This document shows, one piece after another, positions 27,113-44,147 of a DNA stretch of 44,602 nt. The notes below the pieces were generated by a model. The model saw only the letters and a list, made by a program, of their open reading frames with translations, was not told the origin of the DNA and made no database searches. Made by a program: the position numbers and the translations under genes. This DNA comes from an uncultured Spirochaetaceae bacterium (lineage in GTDB: Bacteria; Spirochaetota; Spirochaetia; SZUA-6; DRHE01), in assembly GCA_964389305.1 (NCBI GenBank), contig CAYMEK010000018.1, forward strand, positions 22,203-66,804. Direction: 5' to 3'. Numbering within the stretch: the first letter of the stretch is position 1; each line of letters starts with the position of its first letter.

Positions 27113-27123
27113 ACCTGCTTTTC

Positions 27124-27145
27124 CCGGCCGCCTCCCGGCGGCCGG
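27124..27145 (+). terminator. GC-rich hairpin (CCGGCCGCC-tccc-GGCGGCCGG) 12 nt after the rel stop; possible terminator lacking a U-tract
   Basis: A perfect 9-bp stem with a 4-nt loop. No T-run follows it, which lowers confidence. Confidence 0.3.
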
Positions 27146-27367
27146 AAGCCTGGAAAATGTCAGAAATTCGGATCTCAATGTGATATCTATTATATTGATT
27201 GGTTAAATTTTCCGACAGCAGGTGCTTGGCGCGCCTGTCGGGAAAAACCATTCATCTGCCGACTAGGTATGATAGAGAGCCGGTCGGCATAGGGAGGGAG
27301 GGCCGCCCAGCAAAAAGTTTTCCGGTACGATTCTTGAGAAGATGATGGGAGAGGGAGAGGTGGTGCT

Positions 27368-30300
27368 ATGAACGGAAACCGGAAACATACCTCCATTATC
27401 ATACTGCTGGCGAGCATTTCAGTCGTTTTTTTCACCTGTAAGAATCCATTCACCCGGGTCGGTCTGGGCGACGAGGTAGACCTGGATGTTCCCGATCTTT
27501 CGATCGACAGCCACGAGAACGGGGACTTCGTGAGCTTCGTAGACGGGGATTTCGAGATCTACGGCCGGTACGCAGACGATATCGAGGTGGCCAGCGTCAC
27601 GATCTCCTTCGACGGGGGGGACAGCTTCGCCAGCACCGAGCTGGACAGCAAGAACAGGAAGTGGAGCTTCCTGGTCCGCCAGGCCGACGGCTACACAGAC
27701 GGAGAAAAAGAGCTGATCATCCAGGCCACCGATACTTCGGACAAGGTCATCGAGAAGCGCCTGTTCCTTTTCTTCGACACCGCGCCGCCGCTGGTGCTGG
27801 TTACGGTGCCCTACGAATACGAGTACGCGCCCCCCCTGCAGAAAAACACCTTCAATGGTGAGTTCAGCCTGAAAGGCGAGGCGGCCGACAGCTTCGGCAT
27901 CAAGCGGGTCACTGTTGATGTGTACGACTCACCCATGGGCGCGAGCGACCCCCTTCAATCCTACACCGCGGCCGGCACCGCTAGCTGGACCGCCTTGATC
28001 GACAGCACGGACCTGACCATAGGCAGCGCAGAGTTCGTTTTCCTGGTCACCGCGGAGGACAACGCCGGGAATAGCAATACCTATGTCTACAACTACAAGG
28101 ACGTGTGCGAAGCCAACGACCCCGACCCCATCACGGTGGAGCAGCTATACGATATCGAACAGGGGACGGACCTGGGCCTGGGGATCACGCCGGCGAGCCT
28201 GCCGGGCTACAGGAAATATCACGATCCGGGTGAGAATCCGAAATTTACGCTGCAGATCGATCAGGCCGAGGACCTGCCCCAGTTCGTGGTAAGCAATCCC
28301 GACGAAAGCTCGCCTCCGGATCAGAACATCCTGGGAGCCAGCGCCAACGGCATCGGACTGGTGGAGGACGACGACGGGGTGAGCGTGTCCAGCATCGAGA
28401 TCTGCATCGACGGCGGCGGCTGGGTCTCGCCGACCCAGACGGTTCCGGCAAGCGGCAGCGCCCTCTCGGTACGCTGGCAGCATGATCTGTCCGGGCTTTC
28501 CGAAGGACTGCATACCATACAGGTTCAGGCTCAGGATGTAGGCACTAAATCGAATAGCAGTGCGGAGGTCGGCTTTTTCGTGGACCTCGGGGCTCCCTCG
28601 GTGGAGATCACCTCGCCTGCTCAGGGAAGCTACCACAACGGGGATATCCTGGTTCAGGGCACCGCCTCGGACACCCAGGGGGTAACCAGCGTGAAGGTCA
28701 GCACCGACGGGGGTGCGGACTATTACGACGCCACCGATACCGGGGGAGGCTTCAGCACCTGGCAGTACAGCGCAGCCGTTCCCGGAGACGGGCTCACCGA
28801 CGGCAGCCGGACCATCAAGGTTATGGCCCAGGACGGCTCCGCCAAGATCGCCTATACCAATCTGCAGGTGATCATAGACACCCAGGATCCGTCGGTTTCC
28901 TTCCTCACTCCGGCCAACTCCAGCACGGTCAACGGCGAGGTGCTGCTCCGGGGAACCGCCGCGGACAACACCCAGATCAGCAAAGTCGAGCTGAAGGTGG
29001 GCAAGAACGATCCCTGGATCGAGATGAGCGGCACCTACAACTGGGAGTATGCCATCGACAGCGTGAGCTACGCCAATGCCACCCACGCGGATGAGACCCC
29101 GCCGGGAAGCGATGTCTGGCGGCTGAACATCCGGGCCAGGGCGACCGATACGGCGGGCAACGTCACCGAGCTTACCAATTACAACCTGTTCATCGACAAC
29201 GACCTGGACAAGCCCACGGTCAACGTCATCTCGCCGCTGGACGGGCAGAACCTGGGCGGATCGGTCCTGGTCAGCGGTACGGCCTTCGACGACGATGCGG
29301 TGCACCACGTGGAGATGAAGCTGGACCTTAATCATGACGGAGACTTCCTGGATCAGATCGACCTCAACGGCGACTTCGATACCCTGGACGATTTCGAAGA
29401 CGAGCAGCAGTGGTACACGGTCAGCGGCACCACCACCTGGACTCAAAACCTAAACACCGCCGGCGAGCTGTATCAGACCGAGCCGGGGCACGACGGGCAG
29501 GTTACTATCCGGGTACGGGCCGTGGACACCAAGGATGGCCTCACTCCCGGTCTGGCCGGCAACTACCAGGAGCTTACCATACACTTCGACGACACCATCC
29601 CGCGGCTGGAGAACGTAAGCCATTCCTCCGGCGACTATGTCAAGGGGATCTTCAACCTGACTGCGGACGTGCTCGATGATATCCGCGTGGACGAAATCTA
29701 CATCAGCTATGACGGCGGAGTGAACTACGACGACGTGCTGAACGACCCGACCTACGCCGGGACGTTCGTCCAGAACGATATCAACGATTACGATATCGAT
29801 ATACCCATCAACACCATCGCCACCTCCAGCGGTATCCTGTACCTGCGGCTGAAGGTCGTGGACAACGCCAACTACCAGAAGCTGGAGTACATCAACCTGA
29901 ACGTGGACAACGTGTATCCGGAGGGGATCTATACCGGCGACAGCCTGGATATTTATGGAAGCGGCCTCCACTCCCGGGTTCAGGGCACGGCCACGGACGC
30001 GGAGAGCGTCAGCGGCATCGAGCAAATCCAGGTCTACTTCGTACGGGGTGCGAGCGTGTATAATCCCCAGACAGGCGGGACAATCGGAGTGGGAAGCACC
30101 GATTTCGGCGACGGTAACGGCAGCGTGGCCTACACGGTCAATCCGAGCTACAAGATCATCATCGACAATCGCTACGAGCTGGGCAACGACTCGGGCGGAA
30201 ACGGCGACGGGGACGGCTACGACGAGTCCCTGACCCTGGCCGGATCTACTTACAACTGGTGGGCGGAATTCGATTCCACCCACATCCCCGACGGAACCAT

Positions 30301-32704
30301 CGATATCCACTACGTGGTGTTCGACAACGCCGGCAACGGGCACCACTACCTGCAGCCCGGCTTCATCAAGAACCACAAGCCTGTGATCGACAGCCTGGTG
30401 GTGGGAAGCGACGTGGACATGAGCGGCTCCGTGGAAGCCGATGAGCAGTTTTCCTACGACGGGGTGTTCTCGGCCCGCAACCGCCTGTACATCCAGATCA
30501 ACGCCAGCGACAACGATCCTCCGGGATTGAGTTATGCTGTGTATCATGATCCGGGCGGGGCCAATACGCTGGTCTCCACCGACGCCAGCGAGGAGATCGA
30601 CATCTCGGGGTACGGCGACGGAGCCACCGATTTTCTCTGCCGGGTGACCGACAGCGACGGAATCGTGGTGGATGCCACTATTGATGTAAGTGTCGAGAAC
30701 CTGGACACGGTGGACCCGGCTATCTCTATATACGCTCTGACCCAAGACGATGTGGTGGCCGGACACCTCGAGCAAGACGGCGACAGCCTCCACGACGGGA
30801 CGGATGCGGACGTGAGCGGGACAATTACCTTAACCGGCAGCAGCAGCGACAATCAACGGATTCAGTCGATCACCGTTACTATCGATGATTTCGATGCCGG
30901 TTCCGGTACGGGAATCGAACGCACCGTGGCTTCCTGGTCAGGCACCGTCGATGAGCTGGTTTCCTCCGATCCGGCTCATTTCGTAATCGACTCCCAGAGC
31001 CTGGATGAGGCCGACGGGCATCAAGTTAGCTGGAGCTATACCTGGAATACGGCCGCTATTACCGGTTCGGCAAGGAACAACATCGATATCCTTTTCAAGG
31101 CGAGTGATTTTGGTCCTAATACCGCTACCGATACCATGACCGTGGATGTGGTGCCCTATATCTCGGGAATTGTGAGAACCTTCAATACCCAACGATCTAA
31201 GTACGGGAAATTTCAGGTTCAAGAGGGCGAGACCGGGATAACGATAAACGGCTACAATCTGGCGGAGACGGGCACCAATTGGGCCAGGGTCTATAATTCG
31301 GCCGGCAGCGCCTACGACGATGTGATCGTCACCGCTTCCGGCTCACCCTACACCAGCTTCACCATTTCCCTGGCCGGTGTCACGCATTCGGGCTGGCTGA
31401 GACTGGCGGTGAATGGCGTAGAGGCGATAAACAACAGTAATGACAATACCCTGGAGGCCAACAAAGAGGATGACGGCAGCGGCTTGGCCAACACCAGATG
31501 GACCGATGACAGGTACCTGCGGGTCTGGGCGGTGGGAAATATGTTCAATCAGAGCGGAGACCCCCAACACCCGAGCATGAGCGTCGATTCGAATGGAACG
31601 CTGTACGGCTCCTGGACCAACAGCGCGACCTCAAGGGCCTACTATGCAACAACCGCAGCGAGAACCACGTTCTTCGAGAAATACGATCCGCCGGAATATA
31701 CCGACATATATATAGATTCAAATAATAATCTCAACATCGCCTACCTGGCCAACTATTTCAACGGAGCCAATAGCTGGGGGTTTTTGAGCCTGTGGAACGA
31801 GGAGGCGCCGAATCAAAACAGCTACGACAACTATGACGCCTATCTATTCGAGTGGCTCGGAGCCGACGACATGCTGTTTCAATTCCAGAGGCCACGGGTA
31901 GTTAGAAGCGAAGACAACCTACATCTGGCGTATTACGACTTGAACGAGAAGACGTTGAAATACGCCTATGTGGAAAACGCTGACCAGACTACGAGAAACC
32001 ACAGCGACTGGAACGGCTCAGGCGTCCACGCCCATCTGAACCTGGATGGAGGGGAAGCCCAGCCTGCCGGCAACGGGCAATCGGGACCTTTGACTGCCTT
32101 GGCCGGGGAGTATATGGCCATCGATATCGATGAGAACGGATGTCCGGTGATCATGTACTACGACATTTCCCATCAGACCTTGAAACTAGCCTATTCGGGT
32201 TCCGCGATCCCCACCGCCTATGGGAACTGGACGATCCAGACGGTATTCAAAGCCGATGACCCCAACAGGAGCTTTGTGGGTAAATACATAACCATGAAAA
32301 TAGACTCCGGCGGTAATATCCATGCGGCCTGCAGCAGAACATCAACTGGGAGTCTGATATATCTGTACGCCCCTGACGCCGACGGAGCCGATTACAGCTT
32401 CGATTATAGCGTGGAAGTCGATACCGAAGGCGCAGTAGGCACCTGGGCGGATATTACCCTGAATGGAACCACTCCCTACATTTCTTATCTGAACAATTCC
32501 ATGATAGGAACATTCGACGGGTTGAAGATGGCCTACTACGACGGGAGTCTAGGCGAATGGGAACACGAAATCGTGCCCATTATTACCGGGATCACCGAGA
32601 ACCGAACCAACGTGGAGTACAGGAAGGGCGCCGTGAATTGGCTGATTGCCATCGGATATGCCAGTAGCAACTTTGATATTGTATATCTGAAGCCTGAAGA
32701 ATAG
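27368..32704 (+). CDS. Giant acidic secreted/surface protein (probable lipoprotein) with about 8 or more tandem Big_7-like Ig domains, EF-hand/dockerin-like Ca-binding loops, and a C-terminal beta-propeller-like repeat region
   Basis: 1778 aa. It has a signal peptide ending FFTC. The GTA[SA]D..G[VI]..V.V motif recurs in VQGTASDTQGVTSVKVSTDGG, LRGTAADNTQISKVELKV, VSGTAFDDDAVHHVEMKL and VQGTATDAESVSGIEQIQV. The loops DLNHDGDFLD and DLNGDFDT are present. A C-terminal (A/M)YYD-x5-LK-x-AY repeat recurs roughly every 55-60 aa. Confidence 0.85.
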   Translation: MNGNRKHTSIIILLASISVVFFTCKNPFTRVGLGDEVDLDVPDLSIDSHENGDFVSFVDGDFEIYGRYADDIEVASVTISFDGGDSFASTELDSKNRKWSFLVRQADGYTDGEKELIIQATDTSDKVIEKRLFLFFDTAPPLVLVTVPYEYEYAPPLQKNTFNGEFSLKGEAADSFGIKRVTVDVYDSPMGASDPLQSYTAAGTASWTALIDSTDLTIGSAEFVFLVTAEDNAGNSNTYVYNYKDVCEANDPDPITVEQLYDIEQGTDLGLGITPASLPGYRKYHDPGENPKFTLQIDQAEDLPQFVVSNPDESSPPDQNILGASANGIGLVEDDDGVSVSSIEICIDGGGWVSPTQTVPASGSALSVRWQHDLSGLSEGLHTIQVQAQDVGTKSNSSAEVGFFVDLGAPSVEITSPAQGSYHNGDILVQGTASDTQGVTSVKVSTDGGADYYDATDTGGGFSTWQYSAAVPGDGLTDGSRTIKVMAQDGSAKIAYTNLQVIIDTQDPSVSFLTPANSSTVNGEVLLRGTAADNTQISKVELKVGKNDPWIEMSGTYNWEYAIDSVSYANATHADETPPGSDVWRLNIRARATDTAGNVTELTNYNLFIDNDLDKPTVNVISPLDGQNLGGSVLVSGTAFDDDAVHHVEMKLDLNHDGDFLDQIDLNGDFDTLDDFEDEQQWYTVSGTTTWTQNLNTAGELYQTEPGHDGQVTIRVRAVDTKDGLTPGLAGNYQELTIHFDDTIPRLENVSHSSGDYVKGIFNLTADVLDDIRVDEIYISYDGGVNYDDVLNDPTYAGTFVQNDINDYDIDIPINTIATSSGILYLRLKVVDNANYQKLEYINLNVDNVYPEGIYTGDSLDIYGSGLHSRVQGTATDAESVSGIEQIQVYFVRGASVYNPQTGGTIGVGSTDFGDGNGSVAYTVNPSYKIIIDNRYELGNDSGGNGDGDGYDESLTLAGSTYNWWAEFDSTHIPDGTIDIHYVVFDNAGNGHHYLQPGFIKNHKPVIDSLVVGSDVDMSGSVEADEQFSYDGVFSARNRLYIQINASDNDPPGLSYAVYHDPGGANTLVSTDASEEIDISGYGDGATDFLCRVTDSDGIVVDATIDVSVENLDTVDPAISIYALTQDDVVAGHLEQDGDSLHDGTDADVSGTITLTGSSSDNQRIQSITVTIDDFDAGSGTGIERTVASWSGTVDELVSSDPAHFVIDSQSLDEADGHQVSWSYTWNTAAITGSARNNIDILFKASDFGPNTATDTMTVDVVPYISGIVRTFNTQRSKYGKFQVQEGETGITINGYNLAETGTNWARVYNSAGSAYDDVIVTASGSPYTSFTISLAGVTHSGWLRLAVNGVEAINNSNDNTLEANKEDDGSGLANTRWTDDRYLRVWAVGNMFNQSGDPQHPSMSVDSNGTLYGSWTNSATSRAYYATTAARTTFFEKYDPPEYTDIYIDSNNNLNIAYLANYFNGANSWGFLSLWNEEAPNQNSYDNYDAYLFEWLGADDMLFQFQRPRVVRSEDNLHLAYYDLNEKTLKYAYVENADQTTRNHSDWNGSGVHAHLNLDGGEAQPAGNGQSGPLTALAGEYMAIDIDENGCPVIMYYDISHQTLKLAYSGSAIPTAYGNWTIQTVFKADDPNRSFVGKYITMKIDSGGNIHAACSRTSTGSLIYLYAPDADGADYSFDYSVEVDTEGAVGTWADITLNGTTPYISYLNNSMIGTFDGLKMAYYDGSLGEWEHEIVPIITGITENRTNVEYRKGAVNWLIAIGYASSNFDIVYLKPEE

Positions 32705-32720
32705 ATGAGTAGGAGAGAGG

Positions 32721-35700
32721 ATGAAACGACCAGCCCCGCTGTTCATAGTCTTGTTCCTCCTGGGCGCACGCTTCGCCCTGTTCGGATTAGGCGATCCGGA
32801 GGCGGGGGATTTCCAGGAAGTCAACGGGTTGGAGAACTGGGACCACCGGATCGATCTGTCAGGCTACCAGGAGGGCAAGTATAACCTGATCATCCGCGGC
32901 AGCGATGCCGCCGGGAACCTGGCCTATGAGGGCCCCTACAACATCTTTGTCGACCCGGCTTCGGATCTGCCGGTGGTACGTATCGCCAATCCGGCAGAAG
33001 GAATGCGGGTGGGAGGCAGCCTGAACGTGGTGGGCGCCTGCGTCGATGACGACGGAGTTCGTCAGGTGCAGGTATGCATCGACGACGGAGAGCCCCGGAC
33101 CGCCGAGGGAGGCGAGTTTTGGTCGCTGCGTTTCGATCTGGAGGGCTTCGACGACGGGCAGCACAGCGTGAGCGCCTGGGGCGTGGATATCAACGGCAAC
33201 AGCGGCGAGAGCCAATCGGTTGGCTTTTATCTGGACAGGCGCTCGCCGGTCATCCGGATCAGCTCCCATGCCAGCGGCGCGCTGGTATCCGGTAAGGTGA
33301 CCCTCGAGGGTCTGGTTACCGATCGGAACGGGGTCAGCAGCCTGGAAGTCAGCTCCGATGGCGGGGACACTTACCTGCCTCTGAAGCTGTCCCGCGACAA
33401 GGAAAAGCAGCACTGCGGGTTTTCGCACAGCATCGACACGGAAGCGCTGGCCGACGGCCCGCAGGTCTTCTGGTTCCGGGCTATCGACGAGACCGGCTCG
33501 GTCTCTCAGACCGCTTTCCTGATGTTTGTCAACAATGAGCAACCGTATCTCGAGCTTCTATATCCTCCGGATGAGTCGGAGGTGAGCGGCCGGGTGGTGG
33601 TGAGCGGCCGCGCCTACGACCGGATCGGTCTGAGGTCGCTCGGCTTCGACCTGGATGGAGGCGAGGGAGGAGAGGTCGAGCTGGTACCCGGGAATCCCTT
33701 TTGGACCCGGGAGCTCGATCTGTCCGGAAGAAAAGCGGGAGCCGTCCAGGTTGTCTTTACCCTGGAGAACCTGACCGGCAACCGCAGCTCCATGAAGCTG
33801 CGGTTGAAAATAGATCCGGACTCGGATAGGCCGCGGCTTCAGCTCGCCACTCCGACAGAGGGCTCGCTTCACTCCGGCCCGCCGGTGGCCAGCGGCTTCG
33901 TGAGGGACGAGGACGGGGTGCAGAGCGTGGAATATGCGGTAGATGGCTCCGGCTTCGAATCGGCGGCGGCCGGAGAGGCCTTTCGTTTCACCCTCGACGC
34001 ACTGGAGCCGGGCCGGCACACCCTCAGCATGCGGGCCGTGGACCTGCACGGGACCGCCGGTGAAACCGAAGAGGTTGACTTTATCGTCACCGGCCCCCCG
34101 CCGCGGATCGAGATCACTGAGGTCGAGGGAGGGGAAACGCCTGAGCTTTTCCAGCCGGGGTACCTCATCGGCTCCGGACAAAAGGCGAGGCTCGGTGGAC
34201 AGATCCTTTTTTCGGGCGATGCGGTCAAGGCGGAGTACAGCTTCGGGGCTCAGGAGCACAGGAACCTGGCGCTGCGCAAGGGTGGGGAGTCCGGGAAGAG
34301 GTACTTCGAGCTGGCCGTTCCGGGCGAGCTTCCTCCCGGCCGGGTGGACCTGTCGATCCGGGCGACCGACGCCTTCGATCAGGTCGCTGAATACCGAAGC
34401 TTCTTTTTCGCCGAAAAGGTCGAATCAGCAGACCGTATCATCTTCCAGGATGCTCGCCTGCGGGAGGACGGCAGCATTGTCTTCTCCGATGAGACCCCGC
34501 TTTACGGCTACGCCGGCAGCGGGCCGCTCCGTTCGCTGGCTCTCGATCCGCCCACGGAGCTGGTTCAGATAAGGGCCGAAGGGGCCCTGGTGCTCATCGA
34601 GCCTGCGGGCGCCGGGATCAGCGAGCCCACGGTGGTGAGGGCCACGACTGCGGGGGGAAGATCCGTAAGCTCCCTGCCGCTGCGATTTGTCACAGACAGG
34701 CAGCCGCCGGCATTGGAGATCGAGCAGCCCCTGGTGGGATTGTGGACCGCGGACACGCTCCTGCTCGAAGGGACCGCCACCGATGCCAGCGGAATCCGGA
34801 GAATCGAATATTCCCTGGACCGCGGCGATACCTTCCTGCCTGTAGAGCGCGGCGACAGTGAGAATAGCGCCAGGTTCTCGAAAAGTGTTTCGCTGGCCGC
34901 TTTGAGCGACGGACCGTTCCTGCTGCTGGTGCGGGCCGTGGACCGGGCGGACAACCAGGCGCTGCAGTCGATACCCGTCTACAAAGACACGGTAGCACCG
35001 TTGCCGGTGCTCCTCGCACCCGGGGCGCAGGACGAGCTTAACGGCCTGATCTCCCTGGTGGGCCGTGTAGAGGAGGAGGGAAGGGTGCAGCGTATCGAGT
35101 TCAGCGATGACGGGGAAAGCTTCCGGGAGATCGGAGAAGGGCGCCATTTCGTCTTCGACCTGAACCTCTCCGCCTACGAAACGCTGCCGGAGAGCTTCAC
35201 CCTGCGGGCGGTGGACGCCGCCGGCAACCAGGGAATCCTCACCCCCTCCTTGGATGTGAACCGCGAAGTGGACAAGCCGGTGGTCCAGATCCAGATACCC
35301 GCCCAGGGAGAGCTGATAAAGAACGACTTCACCATCTCCGGGATGGTCTTTGACGACGATCAGGTGGCCGGCATTTCCTACCGCCTGGACGAAGGAGAGT
35401 TCCGCAGCCTGCAGCCTGCCCACCAGTTCAGCATCCCCGTCGCGATCGAGGACATTACGGACAACGAACACCGTGTCGAAGTGATTGCGGAGGACAGCGG
35501 CGGAGTGAAGAGCGACCTCGCGGTCACAACCTTCATGGTCTCGACCTCGGAACCGGAGTCCTTGCTGCTCAGTCCCGGAGTCGAGGAGCAGGTACGAGGG
35601 GTGATCGATCTCAGGGGTGAGAGCCGCGACCCGAACGGCATCGAGGAGGTCTTCGTTTCCCTGGATAACGGGCACAGCTTTCAGGAAATGCAGGGAGCCG

Positions 35701-37484
35701 AGCAGTGGAGCTACCGGCTGGACAGCAGCCTGCTGGCCGACGGGACGCATGCCGTTTTGATCAAGGCGGTAGACTGCACGGGAACCGAGGGTCTCTACAC
35801 CACCACGATAAACGTGGACAACCAGGCTCCGCAGATTATCCTGGATACTCCCTCCGACGGCCAGCTGTTTACCCGCAGCCTGAAAATGGACGGCCGGGCC
35901 GCCGACAACATCGCTTTGGTTTCCCTCACGGCCAGGCTGATTCCAGCCTCCACCGGGGAGGCGCCGGATTTAGGAGAAAGGCGGGATTCCAGTGAAGGAC
36001 GGGATTCCGATGCGGAGCAGACATCCGGCGAAGTGCCATCCCCCGGCGGCCAAAATCCGGGGCTTACTGCCCCTCCCGACAGGCGGGAGTTTGCCCTGTC
36101 CACCGAGGGGCTGATCGGGAGCGAGCTGGACATCGCCTCGCTTCCCGCCGGCTGGTACAACCTGAGCCTCGAGGCCGTTGATGCGGCCGGAAACGTGAGC
36201 CATGTTTCCCGCAATATCCGGATCGAAGAGCCAGCGGCCGTCGAGAGGATCGAGCTGATGTTCCCGGCCGACGGCGCTGAGATGAGCGGCTTTTTCGACA
36301 TCAGCGGACGGGTTGTCTCCGAAGCCCGGCCCGAAAGCGTCGTGGTACTGATCGACGGAGCGGCGCTCGACACCGTGCCGGTGAACGAGAGGGGGTACTT
36401 CTGCCTGGCGGCGGGTCCCGAGCGCATCACCGTGGGTACCCATACGGTACAGGCGCAGGAACAGAGCAGCGGAGAGCCCCGCCTGCGCTCCGAGGAGCGC
36501 AGGGTCCGCTATCTACGCACCGGACCGTGGGTGACCATAACCAGCTTCGAGAACGGAGATTTCGTGAGCGGACGTCCCCTGCTCGCCGGCGAGGCGGGCT
36601 ACTTGCCCGACCCGGTCGAGCAGGACGGGGAGGGAGCCAAAGGAAAACGAGGCCGTCAGCCGGAGGAGCAAAAGGTACAGAGGGTGGAGGTGAGCTTCGA
36701 CAACGGAAACACCTTCCACAAGGCCGATGGCAAGGAATCCTGGCGTCTGCGCCTGGAAACCCAGGAGCTGGCCAACGGCCCGCTGCGTGTCCTGGTCGTG
36801 GCAACCTTCGGGAACGGCGAGAGCGCGATTGCCAAAACGCAGCTGCAGGTGGACACCCGGCCTCCTGAGATAACCCTGCTCAGTCCCGAGGAGGGCAGGC
36901 GCTTCAACGACCAGCTCGAGCTTCTCGGAACCGCCAGCGACGAGGCCGGTCTGGAGCGTATCGAGATAAGCCTGAGAGAGGGCGACAAGAGACGCTACGG
37001 AGTGCCTAAGTTCATTCAAGGTCTGTACCTGGACGTTCACGCCATGGGCGCAACCTACGCGGATGTCGGGCTGGGGTTGAGCTTCTTCGATGACAACGTC
37101 AAGCTACAGGTTCAGGCCGGATTCTCCCCTCCCGGGCGCTTCTCCGGGCTGGTGATGGGCGCCAAGCTGCTGGCCAATATCGCCACGGTTCCGTTCAGCT
37201 ACTTCTTCGGGCCTTCCTGGGAATTCTTCTCCATGTCCCTGGCCTTGGGAGCCAACTTTTCCTACTTCACCATGTCCGAAGACCGGGTCGCCTTTACCAA
37301 AGACGGTCTGGTTCTGGCCGCGGTGGTCGGCCAGCTCGAGTTTGCCCGCTTTCGGGTCCCCGACTGGCGGTTGTTTCATACCTACTCGCTGTACTCCGAA
37401 GTTCAGCTGTGGTTCATATCTTCGGATGTGGAGGCCGGTCTGGCCGGCCGTCTCAGCTTCGGCCTCAGGATAGGACTTCTGTAA
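32721..37484 (+). CDS. Second giant secreted surface protein with about 12 or more Big_7-like Ig repeats and a C-terminal beta-rich, amphipathic possible membrane-anchor domain
   Basis: 1587 aa. It has a signal peptide (MKRPAPLFIVLFLLGARFALFG) and an RBS 8 nt after the stop of the first giant gene. Recurrent Ig motifs include LEGLVTDRNGVSSLEVSSDGGDTY, LEGTATDASGIRRIEYSLDRGDTF and LRGESRDPNGIEEVFVSLDNGHSF. The last roughly 150 aa have alternating aromatic/hydrophobic residues and end ...RLSFGLRIGLL. Confidence 0.85.
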   Translation: MKRPAPLFIVLFLLGARFALFGLGDPEAGDFQEVNGLENWDHRIDLSGYQEGKYNLIIRGSDAAGNLAYEGPYNIFVDPASDLPVVRIANPAEGMRVGGSLNVVGACVDDDGVRQVQVCIDDGEPRTAEGGEFWSLRFDLEGFDDGQHSVSAWGVDINGNSGESQSVGFYLDRRSPVIRISSHASGALVSGKVTLEGLVTDRNGVSSLEVSSDGGDTYLPLKLSRDKEKQHCGFSHSIDTEALADGPQVFWFRAIDETGSVSQTAFLMFVNNEQPYLELLYPPDESEVSGRVVVSGRAYDRIGLRSLGFDLDGGEGGEVELVPGNPFWTRELDLSGRKAGAVQVVFTLENLTGNRSSMKLRLKIDPDSDRPRLQLATPTEGSLHSGPPVASGFVRDEDGVQSVEYAVDGSGFESAAAGEAFRFTLDALEPGRHTLSMRAVDLHGTAGETEEVDFIVTGPPPRIEITEVEGGETPELFQPGYLIGSGQKARLGGQILFSGDAVKAEYSFGAQEHRNLALRKGGESGKRYFELAVPGELPPGRVDLSIRATDAFDQVAEYRSFFFAEKVESADRIIFQDARLREDGSIVFSDETPLYGYAGSGPLRSLALDPPTELVQIRAEGALVLIEPAGAGISEPTVVRATTAGGRSVSSLPLRFVTDRQPPALEIEQPLVGLWTADTLLLEGTATDASGIRRIEYSLDRGDTFLPVERGDSENSARFSKSVSLAALSDGPFLLLVRAVDRADNQALQSIPVYKDTVAPLPVLLAPGAQDELNGLISLVGRVEEEGRVQRIEFSDDGESFREIGEGRHFVFDLNLSAYETLPESFTLRAVDAAGNQGILTPSLDVNREVDKPVVQIQIPAQGELIKNDFTISGMVFDDDQVAGISYRLDEGEFRSLQPAHQFSIPVAIEDITDNEHRVEVIAEDSGGVKSDLAVTTFMVSTSEPESLLLSPGVEEQVRGVIDLRGESRDPNGIEEVFVSLDNGHSFQEMQGAEQWSYRLDSSLLADGTHAVLIKAVDCTGTEGLYTTTINVDNQAPQIILDTPSDGQLFTRSLKMDGRAADNIALVSLTARLIPASTGEAPDLGERRDSSEGRDSDAEQTSGEVPSPGGQNPGLTAPPDRREFALSTEGLIGSELDIASLPAGWYNLSLEAVDAAGNVSHVSRNIRIEEPAAVERIELMFPADGAEMSGFFDISGRVVSEARPESVVVLIDGAALDTVPVNERGYFCLAAGPERITVGTHTVQAQEQSSGEPRLRSEERRVRYLRTGPWVTITSFENGDFVSGRPLLAGEAGYLPDPVEQDGEGAKGKRGRQPEEQKVQRVEVSFDNGNTFHKADGKESWRLRLETQELANGPLRVLVVATFGNGESAIAKTQLQVDTRPPEITLLSPEEGRRFNDQLELLGTASDEAGLERIEISLREGDKRRYGVPKFIQGLYLDVHAMGATYADVGLGLSFFDDNVKLQVQAGFSPPGRFSGLVMGAKLLANIATVPFSYFFGPSWEFFSMSLALGANFSYFTMSEDRVAFTKDGLVLAAVVGQLEFARFRVPDWRLFHTYSLYSEVQLWFISSDVEAGLAGRLSFGLRIGLL

Positions 37485-37500
37485 TAAAACGCCCCACCCC

Positions 37501-37529
37501 TTGTCAAAGTTGAACTATTGTACTATATT
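37501..37529 (+). promoter_or_regulatory. Sigma-70-like promoter of the ytrA-like operon (TTGTCA, N17, TATATT)
   Basis: The hexamers and 17-nt spacing are visible in the sequence about 35 nt upstream of the GntR start. The -10 overlaps the first operator half-site. Confidence 0.45.
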
Positions 37530-37565: not shown

Positions 37566-37958
37566 ATGGTGGAAACGGCTTTGACCTTTTCCCTCGATGC
37601 AACCAACGGGGTGCCTTTCTACAAGCAGATAATTCTGCAGGTCGAGATGGCTATAGCCGACGGCCGGCTGAAGACCGGAGATCAGCTTCCCACCGTTCGC
37701 AGCCTGGCCGTAGACCTGCGGGTCAATCCCAACACGGTGGCCCGGGCTTACAGCGAGCTGGAGATCCGGGGGATCGTCAATACCCAGCAGGGGACCGGCA
37801 CCTTCATCAGCGACCAGAAGGTGCAGATCTCCGAGGTGGAGCGGGAGAAGATCCTGGCCGAGATTACCCGCTCCTTCGTCAGCCATGCTTCCTCCTACGG
37901 ATTCACGCTGGCGGAAATCAGCTCGTATCTCGACGAGCTAAACAGGGGAGGTACCTGA
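37566..37958 (+). CDS. GntR-family transcriptional regulator, YtrA subfamily (short C-terminal domain)
   Basis: 130 aa. The N-terminal GntR wHTH reads LPTVRSLAVDLRVNPNTVARAYSELEIRGIVNTQQGTGTFI. The roughly 50-aa C-terminal tail is typical of YtrA-type regulators that control adjacent ABC transporters. Confidence 0.85.
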   Translation: MVETALTFSLDATNGVPFYKQIILQVEMAIADGRLKTGDQLPTVRSLAVDLRVNPNTVARAYSELEIRGIVNTQQGTGTFISDQKVQISEVEREKILAEITRSFVSHASSYGFTLAEISSYLDELNRGGT

Positions 37959-42237: not shown

Positions 42238-42975
42238 ATGCAACGAGTGATTCTGTTGATATTGGCTTTGGGGTCGGTCGCGGCTGCGGGCGTTTCGGCC
42301 ATGACGGCCGAGGAGATCATCGCCAACGTGGAGCGAAACGAGGTCAACGAGCGGCAGCGAGTCGAGGGATCGATGACCATCCGCGACCGCTTCGGCTCCC
42401 GGGTGAAGACCTTCATCAGCTACGCTTCAGGAACGGACCGGATGCTGCTGGAGTTCACCAACCCGGAGGAAAGGGGACAGAAGATCCTGCGCCTGGAAGA
42501 CGAGATCTATCTGTACTTCCCGGAGGCCGAGGAAATCATCCACCTGCAGGGCTCGGCCCTCAAGGAATCGGTGATGGGCTCGGATTTCTCCTATGAGGAC
42601 CTGACCGGGGAGGGAGATCTGCTGGATCTCTACGACGTCAGCCTGCTCGGCGAACAGATTATCGAGGGACGCAGGAACTATCACCTCCGGCTGACAGCCA
42701 AGAAGCGGGGCGTTGCCTATCCCAAACAGGAAATTTGGGTGGATGCGGAGACCTGGGTGCTGAGCAGGGCCGACGCCTACTCTCTGTCCGGACGGCTGCT
42801 CAAAGAGATGGAGTTCGGGGATGTGCGAAAGGTAGCGGACAAGTACGTGCCCCACGCCATCGTCATACGCGATGCCATGAAGAAGAGCTCCTCCACGGAG
42901 ATGCGCATCGAGGAGATCGATCTGCGGTCGAGCCTTCCGCCGAACATCTTCAGCCTGGAGGAGCTGTCATGGTGA
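42238..42975 (+). CDS. Periplasmic LolA-like (outer-membrane lipoprotein-sorting / DUF-type LolA_like) protein
   Basis: 245 aa with a signal peptide (LILALGSVAAAGVSA). It is mixed beta-rich and has the size and position typical of LolA-like proteins encoded next to MacB/Lol-type ABC systems. The assignment rests on context and composition, not on a strict motif. Confidence 0.55.
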   Translation: MQRVILLILALGSVAAAGVSAMTAEEIIANVERNEVNERQRVEGSMTIRDRFGSRVKTFISYASGTDRMLLEFTNPEERGQKILRLEDEIYLYFPEAEEIIHLQGSALKESVMGSDFSYEDLTGEGDLLDLYDVSLLGEQIIEGRRNYHLRLTAKKRGVAYPKQEIWVDAETWVLSRADAYSLSGRLLKEMEFGDVRKVADKYVPHAIVIRDAMKKSSSTEMRIEEIDLRSSLPPNIFSLEELSW

Positions 42976-44147
42976 GACCCCGGGGCCGCGCGCAAGGCGA
43001 GCGCGGGGTTGGGCCGGCGGCGGCCGCCCCGGCGCTGGCGCTTTTCCTGCTGGCGGCGGCCGGGCTGTCCGCAGAGGTCTCCTCCTCGGTGAGCATCACC
43101 GGCTACGGCTCGGTGCTGCGCGCCGGGGATCGGGCGGTCCTCGCCGGCACCCTGGAGAGCAGCCTGGAGCTGCAATCCCGAGGCAATCCGAACGTCAAGG
43201 GCTACTTCCAGCTCGAAACCCTGCTGGCCGGCGGATTTCTGGTCCTGGATGTGCCCCGGGCCTATGTCAAGGTACGCTTTCCCTGGTTCCGGACAATGCT
43301 GGGCAAGAATCGGGTATCCTGGGGGGAAGGCTTCGTGTTCAACGCCGGGGACGTGGTGTTCGGGGCCACGGAGGCGATCGCCGGAGATCTTACGGCCGAG
43401 ACCCTGCGGGACGAGACGGCCTGGCTGGCGGAGGTATACCTGCCCCTGGGGCCTTTTTCCTTTCTCGAAGGGGTGATTTTCCCCTACGATCTCCAGGCCG
43501 GCGCCCTGGTGACCGGCTTCGGCGGCGCCGGGAGCGAGGAGTTCGGCGAATCCGCCGCCCTCCTGAGCCCGGTGCGCTTCCAGGAGCTGGCCGGAGGCAT
43601 CCGGGGCGCCTTCAAGCCGGGAGCCACCACCGTGGAGGCGGGCTTCTTTTCCTCCGGGAGGGAGGGGGAGCATCGCCCGTACCTCAGCCTGCACGGGCAC
43701 CTGCTCGTCGACTGGAACCTTTCCGCCTCGCTGGCCATTCCCATCGTGGAGCCCGAGTGGCGGGAGTGGGATGACTGGCTGGCCCTCTCGGCCGGGCTGT
43801 TTCGCCTGATCGGCCTGCCTCTGGATCGCAGCCTTTCGGTTCGCCTGGAGGCGGGGATTCGGCCCGGCCTGAGCTGGCGGGAATCCCCGGGCGGTTCGGC
43901 CTACGGCATCTACCTCTTTCCCGAGCTGGTCTTCACCCCTTCGAATACCCTCTCCCTGCAGCTCCGCTGCCTCTTCTCCCCGGTGGACCTGTCGGCCCTC
44001 ACCGCGGCCAGTGTGAGCTGGAACGTCTACCAGGGGCTCACCGTGCTCGGCCACTTGTCCTTCATGGCCGGGGATAAGGACGACCTGTACGCCTGGAACC
44101 GGGACTTCGCGGTAGCCTGTTCGCTGGGTCTGGAGTTCATCTACTAG
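42969..44147 (+). CDS. Predicted outer-membrane beta-barrel protein (hypothetical)
   Basis: I chose the start at ATG 42969, which overlaps the upstream stop, rather than the longer 42735 ORF. It has a signal peptide with AAAAPALALFLLAAAG. Amphipathic beta-strands alternate throughout, and the C-terminus ...SLGLEFIY ends in an aromatic residue (the OMP C-terminal signature). Confidence 0.55.
   Translation: MVRPRGRAQGERGVGPAAAAPALALFLLAAAGLSAEVSSSVSITGYGSVLRAGDRAVLAGTLESSLELQSRGNPNVKGYFQLETLLAGGFLVLDVPRAYVKVRFPWFRTMLGKNRVSWGEGFVFNAGDVVFGATEAIAGDLTAETLRDETAWLAEVYLPLGPFSFLEGVIFPYDLQAGALVTGFGGAGSEEFGESAALLSPVRFQELAGGIRGAFKPGATTVEAGFFSSGREGEHRPYLSLHGHLLVDWNLSASLAIPIVEPEWREWDDWLALSAGLFRLIGLPLDRSLSVRLEAGIRPGLSWRESPGGSAYGIYLFPELVFTPSNTLSLQLRCLFSPVDLSALTAASVSWNVYQGLTVLGHLSFMAGDKDDLYAWNRDFAVACSLGLEFIY

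What the first reader, a model, noticed from the sequence alone, without database searches (positions are those of the whole stretch)
27368..37484. Tandem pair of giant (1778 and 1587 aa) acidic Ig-repeat surface proteins, co-transcribed, with distinct C-terminal modules
Two adjacent genes, 16 nt apart with a strong RBS, each encode a secreted protein built mostly from repeated roughly 100-aa Ig-like units. The units carry a recurring G-T-A-x-D-x-x-G-V-x-x-V-E-V-S-x-D-G-G ... W signature, which resembles Big_7-type domains.

The first has a lipoprotein-like signal (…FFTC). The second has a classic Sec signal. Their C-termini are different and non-Ig (see separate findings below).

This size, acidity and repeat architecture suggest an S-layer or adhesin pair, or a cell-surface scaffold. 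The gene cluster that immediately follows (SPFH, a Lol/MacB-like ABC system, a LolA-like protein and outer-membrane proteins) may serve in their export or anchoring.
Basis: partly seen in the sequence, partly recalled or inferred. Interest (0 to 1): 0.6.

Follow-up and report, generated by a model that had tools for sequence, protein, structure and literature searches.

The report
Spirochaete outer-membrane Ig-array protein pair
Two adjacent giant genes of an uncultured spirochaete encode long chains of Ig-like domains, one held by a lipid anchor and tipped with a lectin-like propeller, the other held by a small outer-membrane barrel and carrying one Ig domain split between its two ends; the family is uncharacterised, and the transporter genes downstream are not conserved neighbours of it.

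Summary
There are two ORFs of 1778 and 1587 aa, 16 nt apart, both acidic and both built from diverged Big_7 Ig-like units.

- **p1** is a lipoprotein with an invariant lipobox Cys. It has 10 Big_7 units, an IPT-like sandwich and a seven-bladed, lectin-like propeller. The propeller "head" evolves discordantly from the stalk and has low GC3.
- **The barrel family** has 248 clusters at 50% identity. The barrel always sits at the C-terminus of 1200–2600-aa Ig arrays, and every named member is from Spirochaetota.
- **New finding:** p2 proteins begin with the second half of a Big_7 unit and end the array, next to the barrel, with the first half. Fused, the halves score as one complete domain. This implies closure of the array or head-to-tail linkage.
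- **Topology:** the barrel places the array at its periplasmic end, so surface display is not established.
- **Downstream cluster:** GntR–SPFH–ABC–LolA-like follows p2 only in the closest relatives, and there a penicillin amidase gene separates them.

The parts
27368..32704 (+). p1 gene: 1778-aa acidic lipoprotein with a Big_7 array and a propeller head
   Evidence: ORF; translation; Big_7 at 127.5 bits; pI 4.09
27368..27439 (+). p1 lipoprotein signal peptide, aa 1-24, ending in the lipobox VFFTC (Cys24)
   Evidence: Sequence. In all orthologues read, the Cys is invariant and is followed by a conserved x-N-P-[FL]-T-x-[IV]-G-L-G-D motif
27476..31153 (+). p1 stalk: 10 diverged Big_7 Ig-like units (aa 37-1262)
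   Evidence: Own-repeat HMM map; Pfam Big_7; repeat profile matches solved Ig-like domains
31154..31510 (+). p1 IPT-like beta-sandwich and linker (aa 1263-1381)
   Evidence: AlphaFold model mdae7f67ebbe5, strands 2-91. No Pfam or PDB sequence match
31511..32701 (+). p1 head: seven-bladed beta-propeller (aa 1382-1778)
32705..32720 (+). 16-nt intergenic spacer with the RBS GGAGAGAGG
   Evidence: Sequence. No terminator-like site on the + strand here. The same 16-nt spacing occurs in L007
32721..37484 (+). p2 gene: 1587-aa acidic Big_7 array protein with a C-terminal outer-membrane barrel
   Evidence: ORF; translation; Big_7 at 197.1 bits; pI 4.55
32721..32786 (+). p2 Sec-type signal peptide (about aa 1-22, no Cys)
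   Evidence: Sequence. Equivalent signals occur in family members. The cleavage site is inferred
32793..32960 (+). p2 N-half: the second half of a Big_7 unit (aa 25-80), at the mature N-terminus
   Evidence: Aligns to HMM positions 45-95. It aligns to positions 49-98 of an HMM built from p1 units only. Present in 96 of 108 full-length family members. Better conserved than the array average
32961..36848 (+). p2 array: 12 full Big_7 units plus one divergent beta-rich stretch (aa 568-657)
36849..36998 (+). p2 C-half: the first half of a Big_7 unit (aa 1377-1426), running straight into barrel strand 1
   Evidence: Aligns to HMM positions 1-50. It aligns to positions 1-46 of the p1-only HMM, and fused with the N-half it gives one domain over positions 1-98 at 51 bits. 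Present in 92 of 108 family members. pLDDT is only about 70 when modelled without a partner
36999..37481 (+). p2 eight-stranded outer-membrane beta-barrel anchor (aa 1427-1587)
37501..37529 (+). Boundary marker: sigma-70-like promoter (TTGTCA-17-TATATT, 10 of 12) ahead of the GntR gene. It marks the start of the separate downstream unit
   Evidence: GntR at 37566-37958

Best explanation
This is a two-gene envelope module found recurrently in class Spirochaetia. It encodes two long, acidic chains of Big_7 Ig-like domains attached to the outer membrane in two different ways.

**p1 (shown unless marked).** p1 is exported by Sec and lipidated at Cys24 (inferred from the invariant lipobox). It carries a stalk of 10 Ig units that ends in an IPT-like sandwich and a seven-bladed propeller. 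The propeller's closest single-domain structural matches are bacterial PLL-type lectins. I read it as a ligand- or glycan-binding head (inferred). The head is exchanged by recombination independently of the stalk.

**p2 (shown unless marked).** p2 is exported by Sec. It would be inserted by BAM through a C-terminal eight-stranded OmpA/NspA-like barrel (inferred), which serves purely as a membrane anchor.

**Split domain.** The p2 array is bounded by the two complementary halves of one Big_7 domain. Strands D-G lie at the mature N-terminus. Strands A-C lie immediately before barrel strand 1. I infer that the halves assemble into one composite domain at the mouth of the barrel. That would either close the roughly 13-domain array into a loop or link neighbouring molecules head to tail.

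**Which face of the membrane.** The array joins the barrel at the N-terminus of strand 1. The connections of fixed length lie on that side and the two strongly length-variable ones lie on the opposite side. Canonical outer-membrane-protein topology therefore places the p2 array on the periplasmic face. I rate that at about 55%, against about 40% for surface display by an undescribed route.

**Function and neighbours.** The pair most likely forms an outer-membrane-attached fibrous scaffold or binding apparatus (inferred). It is a transcription unit of its own and does not depend on the GntR-SPFH-ABC-LolA-like cluster downstream.
For: **Architecture.**

**Lipoprotein.** Cys24 is invariant and followed by a conserved motif in the orthologues of L007, L009, L010, L018, L028, L034, L035, L037, L040 and L044. 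The same holds for the downstream lipoproteins of more than 3300 aa whose N-termini were read in L053 and L061, and the Cys...GLG[DE] motif is also found in L019, L050, L051 and L059.

**Head exchange.**
- In L010 the stalk units are 44-79% identical but the IPT and propeller only 30% and 25%.
- In L035 and L040 the stalks are 32-66% identical but the IPT and propeller 71-75% and 53%.
- Head GC3 is 64-71%, against 75-87% in the rest of the gene and its neighbours.

**Barrel.**
- Eight strands with pLDDT above 90.
- 93 of 109 members end in Phe.
- 248 clusters at 50% identity, always at the extreme C-terminus of arrays of 1200-2600 aa.
- All 80 listed genome loci are Spirochaetota.

**Split domain.**
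- N-half aligns to HMM positions 45-95 and C-half to 1-50.
- 96 and 92 of 108 family members carry them.
- With an HMM built from p1 units only, the fused halves give a single 1-98 match at 51 bits. Genuine p2 units give 45 and 40 bits.
- The N-half exceeds p2's overall identity in all nine orthologue comparisons, and the C-half in eight, with one tie. The barrel is the best-conserved segment in every comparison.

**Topology.**
- S2-S3 is always 4 residues and S4-S5 is 11-12.
- S3-S4 ranges over 6-27 and S5-S6 over 8-23.
- There is no spare segment between the C-half and strand 1.

**Pairing.** Of 43 doubly informative loci, 17 have a second Big_7 giant directly upstream and 13 directly downstream. 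The p1-then-p2 order also occurs in the metagenome loci L001 and L005.

**Independence from the ABC cluster.**
Against: - No experiment exists and no family member is characterised. Public names are only 'hypothetical', 'Ig-like domain-containing' or 'neuraminidase'.
Leftover half units could in principle be relics of out-of-phase repeat duplication.
- Big_7, Big_13 and Ca-tandemer-like domains, strong acidity, a lectin-like polymorphic head, and the analogy with the surface lipoprotein LigB all favour an extracellular location. That conflicts with the periplasmic orientation deduced for p2.
- Two of the four putative external loops (S1-S2, S7-S8) are as constant in length as the turns.
- Pairing is not obligatory. 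13 of 43 loci lack a partner, L011 has p2 directly after relA without p1, and L002 has a p1-like gene alone.
Confidence: 0.5

Rival explanations
1. This is a surface-exposed adhesin or fibril pair. Both Ig arrays project outward from the cell. p1 is a surface lipoprotein like Leptospira LigB. The p2 passenger is exported across the outer membrane by an autotransporter-like or other undescribed route and stays anchored by its barrel.
For: - Domain types typical of extracellular adhesins: Big_7, Big_13, Big_3_3 and a Ca_tandemer match. The repeat profile matches SiiE, Lap and Bap.
- Strong acidity.
- A polymorphic, recombining lectin-like head, as expected for a protein that meets variable external ligands.
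- LigA and LigB are surface-exposed Ig-array lipoproteins of spirochaetes (PMC12183334).
- The number of units varies from 7 to 18 across the family.
Against: - The barrel has 8 strands, not the 12 of type Va or Ve systems.
- No linker helix or spare segment exists to cross the membrane between the C-half and strand 1.
- With an even strand number and a C-terminal beta-signal, the array joins at the periplasmic end.
- The connections of fixed length (S2-S3, S4-S5) lie on the array side, and the two highly variable ones lie opposite.
- No secretion partner is conserved next to the genes.
Confidence: 0.35
2. This is a periplasmic tether or spacer between the outer membrane and the cell wall. The p2 array, and possibly p1, lies under the outer membrane, and the propeller binds peptidoglycan or another periplasmic glycan. 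Together they hold or space the outer membrane over the flagella-containing periplasm. This is a specific version of the periplasmic-face reading.
For: - The topology argument.
- OmpA is reported as the only known outer-membrane tethering system in Spirochaetes (bioRxiv 10.1101/2021.05.31.446380), which leaves room for others.
- The arrays are long enough to span a wide periplasm (inference from 10-14 Ig units).
Against: - No peptidoglycan-binding domain (OmpA_C, LysM, SLH, SPOR) was detected.
- A head that is swapped between close relatives and has foreign GC3 fits poorly with an invariant ligand such as peptidoglycan.
- The module is absent from many spirochaete loci and is not universal.
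- From general knowledge, rigid tethers would hinder rotation of the cell cylinder relative to the outer membrane.
Confidence: 0.12
3. This is an S-layer. The two proteins self-assemble into a paracrystalline surface lattice.
For: Large, acidic, repeat-rich envelope proteins. Head-to-tail linkage through the split domain could in principle build a lattice.
Against: - No SLH or other S-layer anchoring domain, and no S-layer family match.
- The proteins are anchored individually, by a lipid and by a barrel.
- Patchy distribution and variable unit number.
- No expression evidence is available.
Confidence: 0.05
4. The downstream GntR-SPFH-ABC (MacB/Lol-like)-LolA-like-OMP cluster is the dedicated export or anchoring machinery for the two giant proteins.
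For: The cluster is adjacent in the window, 81 nt after p2. It also lies downstream in L007, L008 and L010. p1 is a lipoprotein, and Lol-type systems handle lipoproteins (general knowledge).
Against: - It is absent downstream of p2 homologues in L011, L012 and all other loci with at least 5 kb of flank, and in the five metagenome loci.
- In the closest relatives it is separated from p2 by a penicillin amidase gene.
- It has its own GntR regulator and a promoter-like site.
- Both giant proteins carry ordinary Sec-type signals.
Confidence: 0.04

Closest known systems
Leptospira LigA/LigB (leptospiral immunoglobulin-like lipoproteins)
   Same: These are spirochaete lipoproteins with 12-13 tandem Ig-like domains of about 90 aa that bind Ca2+. 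LigB adds a large non-Ig C-terminal extension (PMC12183334). p1 has the same overall plan: lipobox, 10 Ig units and a non-repeat C-terminus.
   Different: Lig proteins use Big_2 domains. p1 and p2 match Big_7, and no Big_2 match was returned. The LigB extension is described as largely disordered, whereas p1 ends in a confidently folded IPT plus seven-bladed propeller. Lig genes are not paired with a barrel-anchored Ig array.
OmpA / OprF N-domain / NspA / OmpX / OmpW eight-stranded outer-membrane barrels
Type V secretion: classical autotransporters (Va) and intimin/invasin inverse autotransporters (Ve)
   Same: A single polypeptide combines an outer-membrane barrel with a long passenger. Intimin and invasin passengers are Ig-like arrays.
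   Different: Types Va and Ve use 12-stranded barrels with a linker running through the pore. In Ve the barrel is N-terminal. p2 has an 8-stranded C-terminal barrel with no linker segment and no autotransporter or intimin-barrel Pfam match.
Bacterial seven-bladed propeller lectins of the PLL family (PLL, BP39L, CV39L)
   Different: Sequence identity is 9-11%, so this is fold-level similarity only. The lectins are small soluble proteins, not heads of lipoprotein stalks. Sugar binding by p1 is untested.
'Velcro' closure of beta-propellers, and donor-strand complementation in chaperone-usher pili
   Same: In both, an incomplete beta-sandwich or blade is completed by strands supplied from the other end of the chain, or from another subunit. 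This is what I infer for the p2 N-half and C-half.
   Different: In p2 the split is roughly 3+4 strands of an Ig domain, at the two ends of a linear array of about 13 domains next to a membrane barrel. I found no description of such an arrangement. It has not been demonstrated structurally.

Membership tests
Pfam Big_7 (PF17957) bacterial Ig-like domain arrays | Significant match to the Big_7 profile above its gathering score | tested here: met
   p1 scores 127.5 bits and p2 197.1 bits against a cut-off of 24.1, with 4 and 6 stretches reported. A more sensitive profile built from the proteins' own units finds 10 and about 14 units.
Pfam Big_7 (PF17957) bacterial Ig-like domain arrays | Ig-like beta-sandwich fold of the units | tested here: inconclusive
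   No unit was modelled directly because the prediction cap went on the C-terminal modules. Homology supports the fold: a profile of 13 units matches solved Ig-like/E-set domains at E 5e-7 to 2.5e-3.
Bacterial lipoproteins (SPase II substrates) | N-terminal signal peptide ending in a lipobox with an invariant Cys | tested here: met
   p1 reads ...SVVFFTC24. The Cys is conserved in all orthologues read, although positions -1 to -3 vary (T, D, N, A, S, G). Lipidation itself cannot be tested here.
Leptospira Lig proteins | Tandem Big_2 (PF02368) domains | tested here: not met
   No Big_2 match at E <= 0.1. The matches are Big_7, Big_13, Big_3_3 and Big_3_2.
Eight-stranded outer-membrane beta-barrels (OmpA/OmpX/OmpW/NspA-like) | Closed antiparallel barrel of 8 strands with a C-terminal beta-signal | tested here: met
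Eight-stranded outer-membrane beta-barrels (OmpA/OmpX/OmpW/NspA-like) | Sequence membership in a curated barrel family (OmpA_membrane, OMP_b-brl, OmpW and similar) | tested here: not met
   The last 160 residues give no Pfam or NCBIfam match at E <= 0.1 and no PDB sequence match at E <= 1.
Classical autotransporters (type Va) | C-terminal 12-stranded barrel with an alpha-helical linker in the pore | tested here: not met
Inverse autotransporters (type Ve, intimin/invasin) | N-terminal 12-stranded barrel followed by a C-terminal Ig passenger | tested here: not met
   The barrel is at the C-terminus and the N-terminus is a signal peptide followed by a half Ig unit.
T1SS RTX giant adhesins (LapA/SiiE type) | No N-terminal Sec signal, a C-terminal RTX/T1SS signal, and an adjacent ABC-MFP-TolC exporter | tested here: not met
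   Both proteins have N-terminal signals. No RTX match. The neighbouring ABC system is of the MacB_PCD/FtsX plus LolA_like type and is not syntenic in other genomes.
S-layer proteins | An S-layer anchoring or lattice domain (SLH and similar) and self-assembly into a lattice | not testable with these tools
   No SLH or S-layer family match. Lattice formation and abundance need microscopy or proteomics.

The most novel reading that the evidence does not exclude
The p2 family is a previously undescribed class of outer-membrane protein. An eight-stranded barrel anchors a giant Ig array on the periplasmic face of the spirochaete outer membrane. The array is closed into a ring, or polymerised head to tail into a sub-membrane mesh, when two halves of a split Ig domain at its two ends complement each other. 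Its frequent partner, p1, would supply an exchangeable lectin-like head.
Probability: 0.3. Interest if true: 0.75.

Novelty: new variant of a known kind. Interest (0 to 1): 0.55.

Why it matters
Giant Ig-repeat envelope proteins are common, and finding another would be routine. Three things here are not routine.

1. **The anchor.** It is an unannotated eight-stranded barrel family, found so far only in Spirochaetota and always fused to a giant array (248 clusters).
2. **The topology problem.** That anchor puts the array on the "wrong" side for an adhesin. Either spirochaetes carry very long Ig chains under their outer membrane, or they display them by a route not covered by the known type V systems.
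3. **The split domain.** The family-wide split Ig domain predicts a closure or polymerisation mechanism that can be tested directly by modelling and by deleting the N-half.

The spirochaete outer membrane, and how it is organised over the flagella-containing periplasm, is poorly understood. A conserved, abundant-looking module of this kind in free-living and gut spirochaetes is a concrete handle on that question.

The recombining propeller head is also a clean example of cassette exchange on a conserved stalk.

Tried and rejected
- **Exact look-up of p2** in the assembly collection: not on record.
- **phmmer of both C-terminal modules and of long stretches of both arrays against PDB:** no hits. 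Only a profile of the units gave hits.
- **Pfam on the last 600 aa of seven p1-like orthologues:** nothing. I first took the low tblastn scores to mean a different C-terminal fold. End-to-end BLASTP showed instead that these are the same propeller, strongly diverged or exchanged.
An HMM approach replaced it.
- **Foldseek against afdb50** for the propeller was unavailable.
- **Rfam scan of the whole window:** no RNA family. No tRNA was found either.
- **Literature searches** for Big_7 in spirochaetes, for Ig-like arrays with C-terminal barrels in Treponema, and for eight-stranded barrels with Ig-like domains found no description of this architecture.
- **Hop-type interrupted barrel** (one strand at the N-terminus) was considered and rejected. 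The C-terminal module alone forms a closed 8-strand barrel, and the N-terminus matches an Ig half unit, not a membrane strand.
- **The 'neuraminidase' label** on some fragments was rejected. The DGG...W motif of the units resembles Asp-boxes, as shown by partial profile hits to sortilin. The p1 propeller has seven blades and no sialidase match.
Full report
**1.

The window carries two same-strand ORFs at 27368..32704 (1778 aa, p1) and 32721..37484 (1587 aa, p2). They are separated by 16 nt that contain GGAGAGAGG. No terminator-like site lies between them on the + strand.

Both products are acidic along their whole length, with pI 4.09 and 4.55. Pfam Big_7 is far above threshold in both: 127.5 and 197.1 bits against a cut-off of 24.1. 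A profile iterated on the proteins' own repeats finds 10 units in p1 (aa 37-1262) and about 14 in p2 (aa 25-1426).

They are only about 21% identical to each other, within and between the proteins, and there is no repetition at the DNA level. The arrays are therefore old.

A profile of 13 units matches solved Ig-like/E-set domains, including pieces of the giant adhesins SiiE, Lap and Bap. Partial matches to the Asp-box region of sortilin explain why some public fragments of this family are labelled 'neuraminidase'.

**2. Genomic setting**

The window is chromosomal, at 61% GC. Upstream lie prfA, prmC and relA/spoT. Downstream lie GntR, an SPFH protein, an ABC ATPase, two MacB_PCD/FtsX permeases, a LolA_like protein and a probable outer-membrane protein ending in ...LEFIY.

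The closest relatives in a one-genome-per-species collection are uncultured Spirochaetaceae MAGs, with about 80% identity over the p2 C-terminus.

**3. p1**

The signal peptide ends in VFFTC24. The Cys is invariant in every orthologue whose N-terminus I could read, and it is followed by a conserved x-N-P-[FL]-T-x-[IV]-G-L-G-D stretch. The residues just before the Cys vary. p1 is therefore a lipoprotein.

The last 516 residues have no Pfam, NCBIfam or PDB sequence match. They have only 30 homologues at E <= 1e-3 in 5.8 billion sequences, and those with a listed source are metagenomic.

The head evolves apart from the stalk.

| Orthologue | Stalk identity | IPT / propeller identity |
|---|---|---|
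| L010 | 44-79% | 30% / 25% |
| L035, L040 | 32-66% | 71-75% / 53% |

In the window, the last stalk unit, the IPT domain and the propeller have GC3 of 64-71%. The rest of the gene and its neighbours have 75-87%. Together these point to cassette-like exchange of the 3' end.

**4. p2**

p2 has a Sec-type signal without Cys. Its last 160 residues also match no curated family. They do have 86 close homologues, and the few that carry a source name are from Spirochaetota.

An exhaustive phmmer of the barrel against 1.84 billion representatives finds 248 clusters. In every listed case the barrel occupies the extreme C-terminus, and complete proteins are 1200-2600 aa. There is no stand-alone form. Of 109 members, 93 end in Phe and 16 in Leu, the latter including the window's clade.

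This is a membrane anchor of a kind not previously catalogued in fusion with Ig arrays. I found no paper describing it.

**5.

The first detected unit of p2 (aa 29-79) aligns only to the second half of the unit profile, positions 45-95. The last unit (aa 1377-1426) aligns only to the first half, positions 1-50, and runs directly into barrel strand 1.

To avoid circularity I built a profile from seven p1 units only.

| Query | Profile positions matched | Score (bits) |
|---|---|---|
| p2 C-half | 1-46 | 27 |
| p2 N-half | 49-98 | 20.6 |
| C-half + N-half, concatenated | 1-98, one domain | 51 |
| Genuine p2 unit (aa 79-174) | 3-93 | 45 |
| Genuine p2 unit (aa 940-1035) | 3-99 | 40 |

The break falls exactly at the DGG turn.

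The arrangement is a family trait. Among 108 full-length representatives, 96 start with the half unit within 60 residues of the N-terminus, and 92 end the array with the complementary half. The exceptions are mostly truncated gene calls or visible half units that the profile missed. The N-half exceeds p2's overall identity in all nine orthologue comparisons, and the C-half in eight, with one tie. The barrel is the best-conserved segment in every comparison. Modelled alone, the C-half is only moderately confident, at pLDDT about 70.

I infer that the two halves assemble into one domain at the barrel. They could do so within one molecule, closing the array into a loop, or between molecules, linking them head to tail.

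**6. Which side of the membrane?**

Barrels inserted by BAM have both termini in the periplasm when the strand number is even. In p2 nothing separates the C-half from strand 1.

The connection lengths across 109 members are as follows.

| Connection | Side | Length range (residues) |
|---|---|---|
| S2-S3 | terminal side | always 4 |
| S4-S5 | terminal side | 11-12 |
| S6-S7 | terminal side | 5-16, mostly 8 |
| S3-S4 | opposite side | 6-27 |
| S5-S6 | opposite side | 8-23 |
| S1-S2 | opposite side | 5-10, mostly 5 |
| S7-S8 | opposite side | 6 |

The two strongly variable connections lie on the side opposite the termini. This is the usual pattern of external loops and periplasmic turns, although S1-S2 and S7-S8 are also short and constant.

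On this reasoning the p2 array hangs from the periplasmic face. Against it stand several points:
- the domain types are typical of extracellular proteins;
- both proteins are strongly acidic;
- the p1 head is polymorphic;
- the Lig lipoproteins are a surface-exposed analogue.

I rate the periplasmic face at about 55% and surface display by an undescribed route at about 40%. A role as an outer-membrane-to-wall tether is conceivable. OmpA is the only tether system reported for Spirochaetes. No peptidoglycan-binding domain is present, however, and a swapped head argues against an invariant ligand.

**7. The pair is recurrent; the link to the ABC cluster is not**

In 80 genome loci found with the barrel, the barrel-bearing gene always carries an Ig array, of 3-16 detected units where the ORF is long enough to score.

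Of 43 loci informative on both sides, 17 have a second Big_7 giant directly upstream. In these, as in the window, it is a lipoprotein with the Cys...GLGD motif wherever the N-terminus is present. Another 13 have one directly downstream, often a lipoprotein of more than 3300 aa. The remaining 13 have none. The p1-then-p2 order also appears in the metagenome loci L001 and L005.

Either gene can occur alone. L011 has p2 directly after relA, and L002 has a p1-like gene only.

By contrast, GntR-SPFH-ABC-FtsX-FtsX-LolA_like follows p2 only in L007, L008 and L010. In L007 and L010 an 826-aa penicillin amidase gene (PF01804, E 4e-225 in L007) lies in between, and L008 shows the same extra spacing. The cluster is missing downstream in L011, L012 and all other loci with sufficient flank.

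In the window a promoter-like site (10 of 12 matches) precedes GntR.

**8. Verdict**

The proteins belong to the known kind 'giant bacterial Ig-repeat envelope proteins'. They represent an uncharacterised spirochaete variant with three distinctive features:
- an unannotated eight-stranded barrel anchor;
- a family-wide split Ig domain bracketing the array;
- a recombining lectin-like propeller on the lipoprotein partner.

Function (scaffold or binding apparatus) and orientation remain inferences.

Noticed in passing
L007 10657-13137 (also L009 and L010, same position): In the closest relatives an 826-aa penicillin amidase family gene (PF01804, E 4e-225) sits between p2 and the GntR gene. It is absent from the window, where only 81 nt separate them. 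This is a recent insertion or deletion at this junction.
   Followed up: partly
window 30770-32701: The last stalk unit, IPT domain and propeller of p1 have markedly lower GC3 (64-71%) than the rest of the gene and its neighbours (75-87%). The 2-kb GC profile dips to 53.5% here. This fits recent acquisition of the head by recombination.
   Followed up: yes
L003 8373-11403: L003 is a long-read metagenome contig from a relative that shares the window's M16 peptidase / PUA methyltransferase / isocitrate dehydrogenase / D12 methylase / PGM synteny. It carries a partial, frameshifted p1-like copy (from about aa 656, head truncated) between the methyltransferase and the dehydrogenase. That is a different chromosomal site from the window's, and there is no p2. 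It may be a paralogue, a pseudogene or an assembly artefact.
   Followed up: partly
L067 3555-4172 and 7931-8425; also L068, L071: In L067 two barrel matches lie 4.4 kb apart, so two barrel-bearing Big_7 giants sit in tandem. L068 and L071 also carry a second 10-unit Big_7 giant of about 1400 aa next to the barrel gene, but I did not check it for a barrel.
   Followed up: no
L011 3905-10624: In Spirochaetes bacterium RBG_16_67_19 (75% barrel identity) relA is followed directly by the p2 homologue, with no p1 gene between them. Part of the region is masked as N.
   Followed up: no
window 42975-44147: The last gene of the downstream cluster encodes a protein with a signal peptide that ends in ...SLGLEFIY, a typical outer-membrane beta-signal. 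It has no Pfam match. The listed TTG start at 42735 overlaps the LolA_like gene, so the true start is probably later.
   Followed up: partly
window 17121-19118 and 14069-16972: One 665-aa ORF fuses a D12-class N6-adenine methyltransferase with an N6_N4 methylase domain. A 967-aa ORF combines a YidC/60KD_IMP domain with a weak sulfatase-like C-terminus. Both fusions are unusual.
   Followed up: no
window 27113-27367: The 255-nt intergenic region upstream of p1 holds a GC-rich hairpin right after the relA stop (CCGGCCGCC...GGCGGCCGG, about 27125-27146) and a second inverted repeat around 27213-27240. Rfam finds no known RNA here.
   Followed up: partly
p2 aa 568-657 (window 34422-34691): A beta-rich stretch of about 90 aa in the middle of the p2 array does not match the Big_7 unit profile. 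It is among the least conserved segments between orthologues (4-52% identity).
   Followed up: no
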